From positions 1 to 57,295 of IMG/VR virus record IMGVR_UViG_3300037851_000332: 57,295 bases of DNA; one strand, given 5' to 3'. The first letter of the stretch is position 1; each line of letters starts with the position of its first letter. Source of the stretch: a virus. Lineage: Duplodnaviria; Caudoviricetes. The translations under genes and the position numbers were made by a program. The notes below the pieces were generated by a model. That model was given only the letters and a program-made list of their open reading frames with translations, had not been told where the DNA came from and did no database searches. Of the stretch, positions 19,016-19,130 are shown piece after piece.

Positions 19016-19130
19016 ATGGCCGACTAGGATTCTAACCTAGATTCCATGGTAAATACCATGGTCCTCCCCCGAAGTGTCTCAGTACGTATGTACGTCGCCA
19101 GTGTTTCAAGCTGGTTGGATGATCGGCCAT
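19016..19130 (-). ncRNA. tRNA-mimic-like structured RNA with acceptor and T arm
   Basis: ATGGCCGA/TCGGCCAT closing stem, CTAGG-TTAGAAT-CCTAG T-arm-like hairpin, 8-bp hairpin CCATGGTA/TACCATGG, two smaller hairpins. Confidence 0.5.

What the first reader, a model, noticed from the sequence alone, without database searches (positions are those of the whole stretch)
19016..19130. Second tRNA-mimic fills the gap exactly from the tRNA CCA to the next AUG
Seen (minus strand): CCA|ATGGCCGA...CCATGGTA-tt-TACCATGG-aat-CTAGG-TTAGAAT-CCTAG-TCGGCCAT|ATG. A 7-8 bp acceptor-like stem stacks on a 5-bp arm with a T-loop-like UUAGAAU, preceded by a long variable-arm-like hairpin. The D/anticodon region is replaced by a roughly 60-nt domain with two more hairpins. 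There is zero spacer on either side, and gene 19015 has no nearby SD sequence. Inference: a new tRNA-like ncRNA whose 3' processing would release a leaderless mRNA starting at the AUG, a form of tRNA punctuation for the helicase-polymerase genes.
Basis: partly seen in the sequence, partly recalled or inferred. Interest (0 to 1): 0.85.

Follow-up and report, generated by a model that had tools for sequence, protein, structure and literature searches.

The report
Anticodon-less tRNA-Gln relic abutting a start codon
A freshwater phage keeps a reshaped, non-decoding copy of a glutamine tRNA wedged exactly between another tRNA-like gene and the start codon of a replication-module gene, where it most likely serves as a cutting signal for the host's tRNA-processing enzymes, much like the tRNA 'punctuation' of mitochondrial transcripts.

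Summary
Window 19016-19130 (minus strand) folds as described. Its one close relative (L001) differs at 18 of 113 aligned positions. Five base pairs changed on both sides and none of 30 broke.

The element (B) is a derivative of a phage tRNA-Gln gene. A covariance model built from B alone finds genuine tRNA-Gln genes in related phages. One of them has the identical variable-region and T-arm sequence, including the UUAGAAU loop.

By that homology:
- The "variable-arm-like hairpin" is the anticodon arm, closed to a 4-6 nt loop.
- The D stem survives.
- About 50 nt with two covarying hairpins sit in the D loop.
- There is no CCA, and the discriminator U is followed directly by the AUG.

The AUG is the true start of a conserved 150-aa gene (synonymous changes at codons 3, 4 and 8; 40 homologous ORFs). 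It has no SD.

The best reading is a phage "t-element". RNase P and an RNase Z-type cut would excise it, maturing the upstream CCA end and leaving a leaderless mRNA. This is inferred only, because no RNA data exist. A more distant B-like copy (L010) lies 22 nt from its AUG, and the conserved insertion hints at a further function.

Verdict: new variant of a known kind. Interest 0.6.

The parts
19016..19130 (-). Element B: a tRNA-Gln-derived, anticodon-less tRNA-like RNA of 115 nt.
   Evidence: Fold. Covariation against L001. A model built from B alone hits tRNA-Gln genes.
19123..19130 (-). 5' strand of the acceptor-like stem, AUGGCCGA. By homology, 19130 is N-1 and 19129-19123 are tRNA positions 1-7.
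   Evidence: Pairs with 19016-19023. The U-A pair (19129/19017) is A-U in L001.
19117..19120 (-). D-stem 5' strand, AUCC.
   Evidence: Aligned by the model to the D stem (GUCC) of tRNA-Gln. It pairs with GGA at 19062-19064 in the fold. It is invariant in L001, so there is no covariation.
19065..19116 (-). About 50 nt inserted in the D loop. It holds hairpin H1 (19114-19098), hairpin H2 (19093-19082) and the invariant 13-mer CUGAGACACUUCG (19082-19070).
   Evidence: These are the 46-47 model positions skipped when the B model aligns to real tRNAs. H1 has 1 compensatory pair and H2 has 2.
19061..19064 (-). D-stem 3' strand, GGAC. It is part of the SD-like run GGAGGA.
   Evidence: Aligned to the AGGAC of tRNA-Gln and tRNA-Glu.
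19044..19061 (-). Anticodon-arm homologue, a 7-8 bp hairpin with a 2-4 nt loop and no anticodon loop. In L001 it is 6 bp with a 5-nt loop.
19024..19040 (-). T arm: CUAGG-UUAGAAU-CCUAG.
   Evidence: It is identical in tRNA-Gln(UUG) of L052. The A-U pair is G-C in L001.
19016..19023 (-). Acceptor 3' strand UCGGCCA plus the discriminator U (19016). There is no CCA.
18563..19015 (-). gpX, a 150-aa gene of unknown function. Its ATG is at 19015-19013, directly after the discriminator.
   Evidence: 28 synonymous versus 8 non-synonymous codon changes against L001, including synonymous changes at codons 3, 4 and 8. 40 homologous ORFs in related loci with aligned N-termini. An upstream in-frame UAG with no other start codon before the ATG (read by eye).
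19131..19210 (-). Upstream tRNA-like gene X. It has an encoded CCA, and its anticodon arm is extended to 5+3 bp with a 4-nt loop.
   Evidence: ARAGORN calls it tRNA-???. Rfam tRNA scores 51.3 bits with an 11-nt loop insertion. Fold.
19211..19350 (-). Element A, a conserved structured leader of the RNA cluster.
   Evidence: 86.5% identical to L001, with 3 compensatory pairs.

Best explanation
Element B is a tRNA-Gln gene that lost its decoding function. Its anticodon loop is closed, about 50 nt are inserted in the D loop, and it has no CCA. It has been kept by selection as a tRNA-shaped RNA inside the operon ParB-like / 216-aa gene / [A - X - B] / gpX / SNF2-type helicase.

Proposed mechanism (inferred, not shown):
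1. The operon transcript is cut by the host's tRNA-processing enzymes at B.
2. RNase P cuts at the 5' end of B's acceptor stem. This leaves the upstream tRNA-like RNA X ending in CCA, or in CCA plus one A.
3. An RNase Z-type endonuclease cuts after the discriminator U (19016). This releases B and leaves the gpX-helicase mRNA beginning with its AUG.
4. That mRNA is then translated as a leaderless message.

In function, B would be a phage counterpart of plant mitochondrial t-elements and of mitochondrial tRNA punctuation.

Shown here: the tRNA-Gln ancestry, selection on the structure, the exact geometry, a genuine SD-less start codon, and the non-decoding state. Inferred: every cleavage step and the leaderless translation.
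For: (1) Ancestry.
- Model R1, built only from the two B copies, aligns end to end with real tRNAs by skipping 46-47 insertion positions.
- In the 43 sources it hit all tRNA-Gln genes (L013/L014, L015, L018; E 7e-5 to 2e-3) and 2 of 3 tRNA-Glu genes. It hit no tRNA-Leu, -Ile or -Ala gene.
- In L052, which has 35 tRNA calls, the two tRNA-Gln genes were best (E about 5e-8).
- tRNA-Gln(UUG) of L052 carries the identical GAAUCUAGGUUAGAAUCCUAGUC.
- In a plain alignment of B without its insertion against 49 tRNAs, the 5 tRNA-Gln genes ranked 1, 2, 3, 4 and 6.

(2) Selection on structure. Five double compensatory changes, 0 of 30 pairs broken, and no conserved frame.

(3) Not a decoder. The anticodon-arm loop is 2-4 nt in the window, 5 nt in L001 and 6 nt in L010. 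There is no Rfam tRNA hit at E <= 10.

(4) Geometry. N-1 A, then a 7-bp acceptor stem, then the discriminator U, then AUG, in both copies.

(5) The start codon is real and has no SD. The first 30 nt of gpX are 30% GC in a 54% GC genome, and they are unpaired in the context fold.

(6) Parallel case. In L038 a different tRNA-like element (8-bp acceptor stem, 7-bp anticodon stem, 6-nt loop, no CCA) ends 3 nt before the gpX ATG, also with no SD.

(7) SD use in the family. An SD 4-mer precedes gpX in 13 of 31 distinct relatives, but in none of the 4 that have a tRNA-like element directly upstream.

(8) The phage's bona fide tRNA-Leu (6216-6297) has no encoded CCA. The host must therefore mature CCA-less 3' ends.

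(9) Precedent. Non-canonical tRNA-like t-elements direct RNase P and RNase Z cuts that create mRNA ends in plant mitochondria (PMC1920247, passages read).
Against: - There is no RNA evidence at all. No RNA run holds the locus, and only contigs could be laid.
- Only two close sequences exist. The runs X2 and X3 carry the L001 type, so conservation of the abutment is weak evidence.
- The more distant B-like copy in L010-L012 has a weak acceptor stem (5 of 7 pairs, read by eye) and lies 22 nt from the ATG. Abutment is therefore not a property of the whole family.
- A processing signal does not need a 50-nt D-loop insertion with two covarying hairpins and an invariant 13-mer. This points to an additional or different function.
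- The elbow that RNase P and RNase Z read is altered. The T loop has A56 and the D loop is replaced.
- A 3' cut displaced by one base would destroy the AUG. If the stem is read as 8 bp, the discriminator would be the A of the AUG.
- The host and its RNase Z status are unknown.
- In an E. coli-type host, 3' trailers are first cut by RNase E (recalled, not from a call). That cut would fall inside the AU-rich first codons of gpX.
Confidence: 0.45

Rival explanations
1. B is a stand-alone functional small RNA. A tRNA scaffold gives it processing and stability, and it displays the conserved D-loop insertion as the working part, for example as a decoy or a binding partner for a host or phage factor. 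On this reading, the position next to the AUG is a by-product of sitting last in a tRNA array. This is not exclusive of the best explanation, since its biogenesis would use the same cuts.
For: - The insertion hairpins H1 and H2 covary, and a 13-mer is invariant, while B as a whole diverges (17%) about as fast as third codon positions (30 of 151).
- A B-like element is kept in L010-L012, whose neighbouring protein is 49% identical. It has a D-loop insertion at the same place, the same GAAUCUGGUUAGAAUCC and a closed anticodon loop, although it is not abutting the ATG.
- The neighbouring RNA X is also anticodon-less, so the phage keeps a set of non-decoding tRNA-shaped RNAs.
- A non-decoding pseudo-tRNA with a cellular role is on record in Bacillus cereus (PMC3399842, abstract in a search listing only).
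Against: - No target was found. The invariant 13-mer has no more complementary sites in the window than chance gives (12 found, 16.3 expected).
- The insertion sequences of B and of the L010 copy share little beyond GAGAC (read by eye).
- There is no Rfam family and no RNA data.
Confidence: 0.25
2. B is an uncleaved, or only 5'-cleaved, part of the gpX mRNA. It would be a 5'-terminal structured leader that protects the message from 5'-end-dependent decay, or a regulatory structure that governs access to the SD-less AUG.
For: - In most relatives gpX is preceded by a strong hairpin, so a structure upstream of gpX is the family norm.
- The AUG lies directly after a stable stem and is followed by about 20 unpaired AU-rich nt.
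- In the context fold, the C and A of the upstream CCA can pair with the U and G of the AUG. Removal of X could therefore unmask the start codon (2 weak pairs only).
Against: - In the relatives, those hairpins are followed by a spacer and, in 13 of 31, by an SD. Here there is neither.
- An internal AUG flush against an 8-bp stem with no SD is a poor initiation site by established knowledge of bacterial initiation.
- The full tRNA frame (T arm, D stem, 7-bp acceptor stem) is more than a protective hairpin needs.
Confidence: 0.17
3. B is a decaying tRNA-Gln pseudogene with no function. Its position is an accident.
For: - It has lost the anticodon loop and the CCA, and it carries an insertion.
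- Its overall divergence from L001 (17%) is close to that of third codon positions.
- The L010 copy has a degraded acceptor stem.
Against: - 0 of 30 pairs are broken and 5 pairs show double compensatory changes. The chance of no broken pair under random placement is 1.65e-4.
- The element persists in lineages whose neighbouring protein is only 49% identical.
Confidence: 0.06
4. B is a self-cleaving ribozyme, HDV-like (theta) or hatchet-type, that cuts at its own 5' end and so trims the upstream tRNA-like RNA.
For: - It starts directly after a tRNA-like 3' end.
- Theta ribozymes are reported next to viral tRNAs (PMC10879173 and its preprint; titles and abstract openings in a search listing only).
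Against: - No ribozyme family matched at E <= 10 with permissive filters over 18500-19900.
- The 5' end pairs with the 3' end. It does not pair with an internal strand as in the nested double pseudoknot of HDV-like ribozymes. That topology is recalled, not read in a paper here.
- The whole frame is explained by tRNA-Gln homology.
Confidence: 0.03

Closest known systems
Plant mitochondrial t-elements (PMC1920247, passages read)
   Same: Both are non-canonical tRNA-like cloverleaves with a conserved T arm, embedded in longer transcripts. They are not decoders, and their ends coincide with mRNA ends. For t-elements the cuts are proposed, and partly shown, to be made by RNase P and RNase Z, and one listed 5' end lies at +2 of rps4.
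   Different: B is in a bacteriophage, and its tRNA-Gln origin is traceable. It has a 50-nt structured D-loop insertion and lies flush against the AUG. No ends have been mapped here.
Mitochondrial tRNA punctuation (recalled: Ojala et al. 1981; reviews PMC3790967 and PMC8601606 seen as abstracts in a listing)
   Same: In both, excision of a tRNA-shaped unit defines the ends of flanking RNAs and yields mRNAs with no leader or almost none.
   Different: In mitochondria the units are mostly functional tRNAs and the rule is genome-wide. Here there is a single junction with a non-decoding relic, and the enzymes would be bacterial.
Phage T4 tRNA cluster: dimeric precursors, CCA-less tRNAs matured with host RNase BN/Z, and stable RNAs species 1 and 2 (recalled, no call)
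   Same: Both have tightly packed tRNA-type units in a phage transcript, where RNase P cutting of the downstream unit frees the upstream 3' end. Both include tRNA-cluster RNAs of unknown function.
   Different: The T4 units are not known to abut a start codon or to produce leaderless mRNAs. B is a modified tRNA-Gln, and no sequence relation to the T4 RNAs was tested.
tRNA (Rfam RF00005), specifically phage tRNA-Gln
   Same: Shared features are the 7-bp acceptor stem starting U-A, the D stem, the 5-bp T stem with a 7-nt T loop, and the 3-4 nt variable region. The variable region and T arm are identical to those of L052 tRNA-Gln(UUG).
   Different: B has no 7-nt anticodon loop, no CCA and a 50-nt D-loop insertion. 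There is no RF00005 hit at E <= 10.
tmRNA (RF00023), which occupies the same gene slot in relatives L004/L045 (128.5 bits)
   Same: Both are tRNA-like domains without an anticodon, in the same intergenic slot of the same phage family.
   Different: In B, position 3:70 is G-C, not the G3-U70 wobble pair that marks tmRNA. B has no tag reading frame conserved between the two copies and no CCA. The only hit was a chance-level tmRNA_permuted match (13.9 bits, E 3.1), and it rests on the T arm and CCA of X.
Pseudo-tRNA 'tRNA-Other' of Bacillus cereus (PMC3399842, abstract in a listing); mascRNA (recalled)
   Same: These are tRNA-shaped RNAs that do not decode and are made by tRNA-processing enzymes.
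   Different: They have different origins and contexts, and no relation to a start codon.

Membership tests
tRNA (RF00005) | Score at or above the curated Rfam threshold (29 bits). | tested here: not met
   Only 19134-19210 (X) and 6216-6297 scored. Nothing over 19016-19130 matched, even at E <= 10.
tRNA (RF00005) | A 7-bp acceptor stem stacked on a 5-bp T stem with a 7-nt T loop. | tested here: met
   The stem and the T arm each contain a compensatory pair.
tRNA (RF00005) | A 5-bp anticodon stem with a 7-nt loop that carries an anticodon. | tested here: not met
   The loop is 2-4 nt in the window, 5 nt in L001 and 6 nt in L010, and its sequence is not conserved.
tRNA (RF00005) | A 3' CCA, either encoded or added. 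| tested here: not met
   It is not encoded, since the discriminator U is followed by AUG. Whether CCA is added after cleavage cannot be tested here.
tRNA-Gln descent (homology, not function) | Closer to tRNA-Gln than to other isoacceptors. | tested here: met
   Model R1 gives its best tRNA hits to tRNA-Gln. The 5 tRNA-Gln genes ranked 1, 2, 3, 4 and 6 of 49 tRNAs. The margins over Asn, Arg and Glu are small.
t-element / tRNA punctuation signal | A non-canonical tRNA-like fold with a conserved T arm inside a longer transcript. | tested here: met
   It lies within a run of co-directional genes.
t-element / tRNA punctuation signal | RNA termini coincide with the ends of the element. | not testable with these tools
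   No RNA run holds the locus, and contigs cannot show ends.
t-element / tRNA punctuation signal | Cleaved by RNase P (5') and RNase Z (3'). | not testable with these tools
   This needs in vitro or in vivo assays.
tmRNA (RF00023 / RF04321) | Rfam threshold, G3-U70, and a tag reading frame. | tested here: not met
   One search gave 13.9 bits against a threshold of 47. Position 3:70 is G-C. Frames differ between the two copies because of 3 indels.
HDV-like / theta, hatchet and other self-cleaving ribozymes | A match to any Rfam ribozyme model, and for HDV-like a nested double pseudoknot with P1 closed by an internal strand. | tested here: not met
   There were no hits at E <= 10. The 5' strand pairs only with the 3' end. 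Self-cleavage itself cannot be tested here.

The most novel reading that the evidence does not exclude
A bacteriophage uses mitochondria-style tRNA punctuation. A domesticated, anticodon-less tRNA-Gln relic is excised by RNase P and RNase Z. This turns an SD-less internal cistron (gpX and the helicase) into a leaderless mRNA, so that processing switches on translation of replication genes. The excised RNA, with its conserved D-loop insertion, would itself be a new class of tRNA-scaffolded phage small RNA. It might be handled by the NYN-domain nuclease that this phage family conserves.
Probability: 0.25. Interest if true: 0.8.

Novelty: new variant of a known kind. Interest (0 to 1): 0.6.

Why it matters
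If the cuts occur as proposed, this would be a bacterial-virus example of tRNA punctuation creating a leaderless mRNA. That mechanism is so far associated with mitochondria and plant mitochondrial t-elements.

My two searches for this idea (terms 'tRNA punctuation', 'bacteriophage', 'tRNA-like', 'RNase Z'; 'tRNA-like', 'bacteriophage', 'RNase P', 'leaderless mRNA') listed no paper describing it in phages. That is evidence only for the library searched.

It also shows that phage 'tRNA-like' calls that gene finders flag as odd (tRNA-???) can be selected, non-decoding RNAs rather than annotation noise. It gives a concrete, cheaply testable construct: about 450 nt, two enzymes and one reporter.

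Finally, it documents how a tRNA gene can be exapted. The anticodon loop was closed and the D loop expanded, while the acceptor stem and T arm, which processing enzymes read, were kept.

Tried and rejected
- **Rfam.** The whole window at gathering thresholds, and 18500-19900 at E <= 10, gave no family for B. The tmRNA_permuted hit (13.9 bits, E 3.1) rests on the T arm and CCA of X and is rejected.
- **RNA evidence.** No RNA holder is listed. Laying contigs of X1-X3 showed only the L001-type variant, with 68 other letters between 19136 and 19209. This gives no information on expression.
- **DNA pattern scans.**
  - GGAATCTNGGTTAGAATCCNAGT in viral contigs found only the L001 contig.
  - GAGACACTTCG...GGTTAGAATCC in metagenome contigs found 0.
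  - GAATCT(N)GGTTAGAATCC in viral contigs found 7 stretches. Two (L048, L050) lie in what look like coding regions and are taken as chance. Three are the L010-L012 contigs, one is the L001 contig, and one is the L052 tRNA array.
- **Sequence-only searches.** blastn and nhmmer with B against all loci found nothing beyond L001.
- **Second copy.** B has no second copy in the window (filters off).
- **Cultured phages.** A tblastn search of the 216-aa neighbour found no match. A blastn search of 18000-20500 gave only short ParB-gene hits to Pseudomonas phages.
- **Genome contigs.** Three MAG contigs were found, which says nothing firm about the host.
- **Metagenome protein scan.** Intermediate relatives were therefore not obtained.
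- **Protein Atlas and Pfam/PHROGs for gpX.** No usable hit. The 216-aa neighbour resembles viral hypothetical clusters, with Pam3_Gp34 on a minority of members.
- **Hammerhead reading of CUGAGAC...GAAA.** Rejected by eye, because position 8 of the core is A, not G. The core consensus is recalled.
- **SD bridged by structure (GGAGGA 46 nt upstream).** Judged unlikely, because that run is the D-stem 3' strand inherited from tRNA-Gln.
- **Target search for the invariant 13-mer.** Complementary sites were no more frequent than chance.
- **Closed or failed tools.** A paper reading 'find' on the theta-ribozyme paper failed on a term's syntax and was not repeated, so that paper was seen only as a listing.
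- **Supplements.** Supplements of the papers were not seen. Those of PMC1920247 hold the end-mapping figures.
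Full report
**What the window is.** The window is a 57,295-base virus record from IMG/VR, estimated 63% complete. Its GC content is 54.1% and it is held by a freshwater metagenome run.

Around the finding, all genes run on the minus strand, in this order:
- a ParB-like gene (21140-20157);
- a 216-aa gene (20001-19351);
- a 335-nt gap;
- a 150-aa gene that I call gpX (19015-18563);
- an SNF2-type helicase (18566-16626);
- further ParB-like and family-A DNA polymerase genes.

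The gap holds three units: a conserved structured leader A (19350-19211), a tRNA-like gene X (19210-19131) and the element in question, B (19130-19016).

Read on the minus strand, X ends ...ACCA at 19131, B begins AUGGCCGA at 19130 and ends UCGGCCAU at 19016, and the ATG follows at 19015.
- It survives when 266 nt of context are folded.
- Rfam has no family for it, either at gathering thresholds or at E <= 10.

**Selection on the structure.** Only one close relative could be found, IMGVR_UViG_3300049489_000263 (L001/L003/L005; gpX is 95% identical). Contigs in two further freshwater runs carry the same variant.
- In a pairwise alignment of the two B copies there are 18 substitutions in 113 aligned columns and three 1-nt indels.
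- Eleven substitutions fall in paired positions. Ten of them form five double compensatory changes: one in the terminal stem, one in hairpin H1, two in hairpin H2 and one in the T-like stem. One changes U-A to U-G. None of the 30 pairs is broken.
- Random placement of the same number of changes left no pair broken in 33 of 200,000 trials, and gave five double changes in none.
- Caveats: there are only two sequences, and the structure was chosen with them in view.
- The indels exclude a conserved reading frame.
- B as a whole is 83% identical. That is about as diverged as third codon positions of gpX (30 of 151 differ). The shape, not the sequence, is therefore what is kept.

**What it is: a reshaped tRNA-Gln.** I built a covariance model from the two B copies alone.
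- In 43 sources (275 kb) it found, besides B itself, full-length alignments to real tRNA genes of related phages, made by skipping the 46-47 central positions. It hit tRNA-Gln in L018, L013/L014 and L015 and tRNA-Glu in L015 and L017 (E 7e-5 to 2e-3). It hit no tRNA-Leu, -Ile or -Ala gene.
- A pattern scan for the T-arm words led to L052, a phage fragment with 35 tRNA calls. There the two tRNA-Gln genes were the best hits (E about 5e-8). tRNA-Glu, -Asn and -Arg followed at about 1e-4.
- tRNA-Gln(UUG) of L052 carries exactly the variable region and T arm of B, GAAUCUAGGUUAGAAUCCUAGUC. The odd T loop UUAGAAU is thus inherited, not a new feature.
- A plain alignment of B without its insertion against 49 tRNAs placed the five tRNA-Gln genes at ranks 1, 2, 3, 4 and 6, although the margins are small.

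The homology re-labels the parts:

| Window positions | Role by homology |
|---|---|
| 19130 | N-1 |
| 19129-19123 / 19023-19017 | 7-bp acceptor stem starting U-A |
| 19120-19117 / 19064-19061 | D stem, AUCC / GGAC |
| 19116-19065 | about 50-nt insertion in the D loop, with hairpins H1 and H2 and an invariant 13-mer |
| 19040-19024 | T arm |
| 19016 | discriminator U |

There is no CCA. B cannot decode.

**A wider family.** The 216-aa neighbour defines a phage family of 41 loci in IMG/VR. All but one of those loci have a gpX homologue, and with L001 and the window that makes 40 homologous ORFs.
- The neighbourhood is a small-RNA slot. It holds true tmRNAs (L004/L045 at the very place of A-X-B, Rfam 128.5 bits; also L013 and L018), tRNA-Glu, -Gln, -Ile and -Leu genes, and several 'tRNA-???' calls.
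- L010-L012 (neighbour 49% identical) have a B-like element at the same place. It shares GAAUCUGGUUAGAAUCC and a D stem AUCC/GGAU that encloses an inserted 9-10-bp hairpin, and it has a 5-bp arm with a 6-nt loop.
- That element has a weak acceptor stem (5 of 7 pairs by my reading) and a 22-nt spacer before the gpX ATG.
- The D-loop insertion and the closed anticodon loop are therefore old features. The abutment to the ATG is not universal.

**The start codon.**
- Between the window and L001, gpX shows 28 synonymous and 8 non-synonymous codon changes. Synonymous changes occur at codons 3, 4 and 8.
- Upstream in frame there is a UAG seven codons back and no other start codon.
- The N-termini of the homologues align at this Met.
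- No SD word lies within 20 nt. An SD word precedes gpX in 13 of 31 distinct relatives, but in none of the four that have a tRNA-like element directly upstream: window, L001, L010 and L038.
- The GGAGGA 46 nt upstream is the tRNA-derived D-stem strand.
- The first 30 nt of gpX are 30% GC and unpaired in the context fold.
- L038 (neighbour 39% identical) gives an independent parallel. A different tRNA-like element, with an 8-bp acceptor stem, a 7-bp anticodon stem, a 6-nt loop and no CCA, ends three bases before the gpX ATG.

**How it most likely works.** With the homology-based numbering, the junctions are those of a tRNA precursor: ...CCA-A|U1...A72-U73|AUG.
- The 5' junction is ordinary for phage tRNA arrays. 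L052 has spacers of 0-2 nt.
- RNase P cutting there would leave X with CCA, or with CCA plus one A.
- An RNase Z-type cut after the discriminator would leave an mRNA that starts with AUG.
- The phage's own tRNA-Leu lacks an encoded CCA, so its host must process CCA-less 3' ends.

This is what plant mitochondrial t-elements are proposed, and partly shown, to do (PMC1920247, passages read). It is also the logic of mitochondrial tRNA punctuation (recalled). All cleavage steps and the leaderless translation are inference. I put this reading at 0.45.

**What speaks against it, and the rivals.**
- There is no RNA evidence, and only two close sequences exist.
- The L010 copy is not flush with its ATG.
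- The elbow region is altered.
- A cut displaced by one base would destroy the AUG.

The conserved, covarying insertion is more than a cutting signal needs. B may therefore also, or instead, be a tRNA-scaffolded small RNA with its own target (0.25, not exclusive). I found no target: sites complementary to the invariant 13-mer are no more frequent than chance.

Other rivals:
- a 5' structured leader without a 3' cut (0.17);
- a neutral pseudogene (0.06, contradicted);
- a self-cleaving ribozyme (0.03, with no Rfam hit and a topology explained by tRNA homology).

**Comparison and novelty.** B is not a member of the tRNA, tmRNA or any ribozyme family by the tests run. It descends from tRNA-Gln and would work like a t-element.

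My searches listed no paper describing tRNA punctuation or leaderless-mRNA generation by tRNA-like elements in phages. This holds only for the library searched, and supplements were closed. I rate it a new variant of a known kind, with interest 0.6.

Noticed in passing
window 19131-19210 (-); L001 2811-2886: The tRNA-like gene X is a swapped cassette. Flanks A and B are 83-86% identical between the window and L001. Between 19136 and 19209, however, the relative (and the X3 contig) carries 68 unrelated letters. Both versions keep the acceptor stem, T arm and CCA, and both have a closed or extended anticodon arm (a 4-nt loop here, a 10-bp arm with a 3-4 nt loop in L001). ARAGORN does not call the L001 version.
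   Followed up: partly
window 19211-19350 (-): Element A, upstream of X, is a conserved structured RNA with 43 predicted pairs, 3 of them with compensatory changes against L001. It ends in a 9-bp hairpin, GGCUGAUAC-ACA-AUAUCAGCC. It has no Rfam family. Short words of it (CUAGUCUU, CCUACGUG) recur upstream of the tmRNA in L004.
   Followed up: partly
window 18842-18867 (-), inside gpX: An 11-bp perfect hairpin followed by GAUUGUUUUU, which is terminator-like, lies inside the gpX reading frame (codons about 50-61). Codons 43-66 show no substitution at all against L001, not even synonymous ones. This suggests a constraint at the RNA level.
   Followed up: partly
window 8641-9099 (-): A 152-aa protein has a NYN ribonuclease-type domain (PF01936, E 2.8e-22). 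The family is found in 4 of 5 related virus records searched. The fifth is a fragment estimated 20% complete. It is a candidate phage RNA-processing nuclease, and no link to B was tested.
   Followed up: partly
window 9162-9176 (-), 9784-9798 (-), 19217-19237: The 14-15-mer GATATTGTGTATCA(T) occurs twice on the minus strand, roughly 50-65 nt upstream of gene starts. It occurs once in inverted orientation, as one arm plus the loop of the element A hairpin. It may be a promoter or operator word.
   Followed up: no
L004 2962-3346 (= L045): A complete relative (84,413 bases with terminal repeats) has a genuine tmRNA in the slot where the window has A-X-B (Rfam 128.5 bits). By my reading its tag is ANNVINADFGQSAKAA. 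ARAGORN missed it. It is flanked by terminator-like hairpins.
   Followed up: partly
L027 3330-4680: About 1.4 kb has no long ORF but contains several T-arm-like hairpins (for example CUAGG-UUCGAAU-CCUAG). Neither ARAGORN nor Rfam calls them tRNAs. They may be more tRNA-derived elements.
   Followed up: no
L038 3398-3474; L008 2099-2175: Further 'tRNA-???' calls occur in the family, with 6-nt and 8-nt anticodon loops. The L038 element ends 3 nt before the gpX ATG.
   Followed up: partly
L052 331-7030: A 14-kb phage fragment has 35 tRNA calls. They include a CUA-anticodon tRNA (called Pyl) and a tRNA with the 4-nt anticodon 'taaa'. Its tRNA-Gln genes have the T loop UUAGAAU.
   Followed up: no
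window 6216-6297 (-): tRNA-Leu(UAG) has a G1-U72 first pair and no encoded CCA. A GC-rich hairpin (GCCGGCCC-GUAA-GGGCCGGC) directly precedes it.
   Followed up: no
window 18957-18985 (-), gpX codons 11-20: A hairpin, GGCGGCUG...CGGCCGCC, lies early in gpX. In L001 the one non-synonymous change here (Ser to Ala, codon 18) makes it a perfect 10-bp stem.
   Followed up: no
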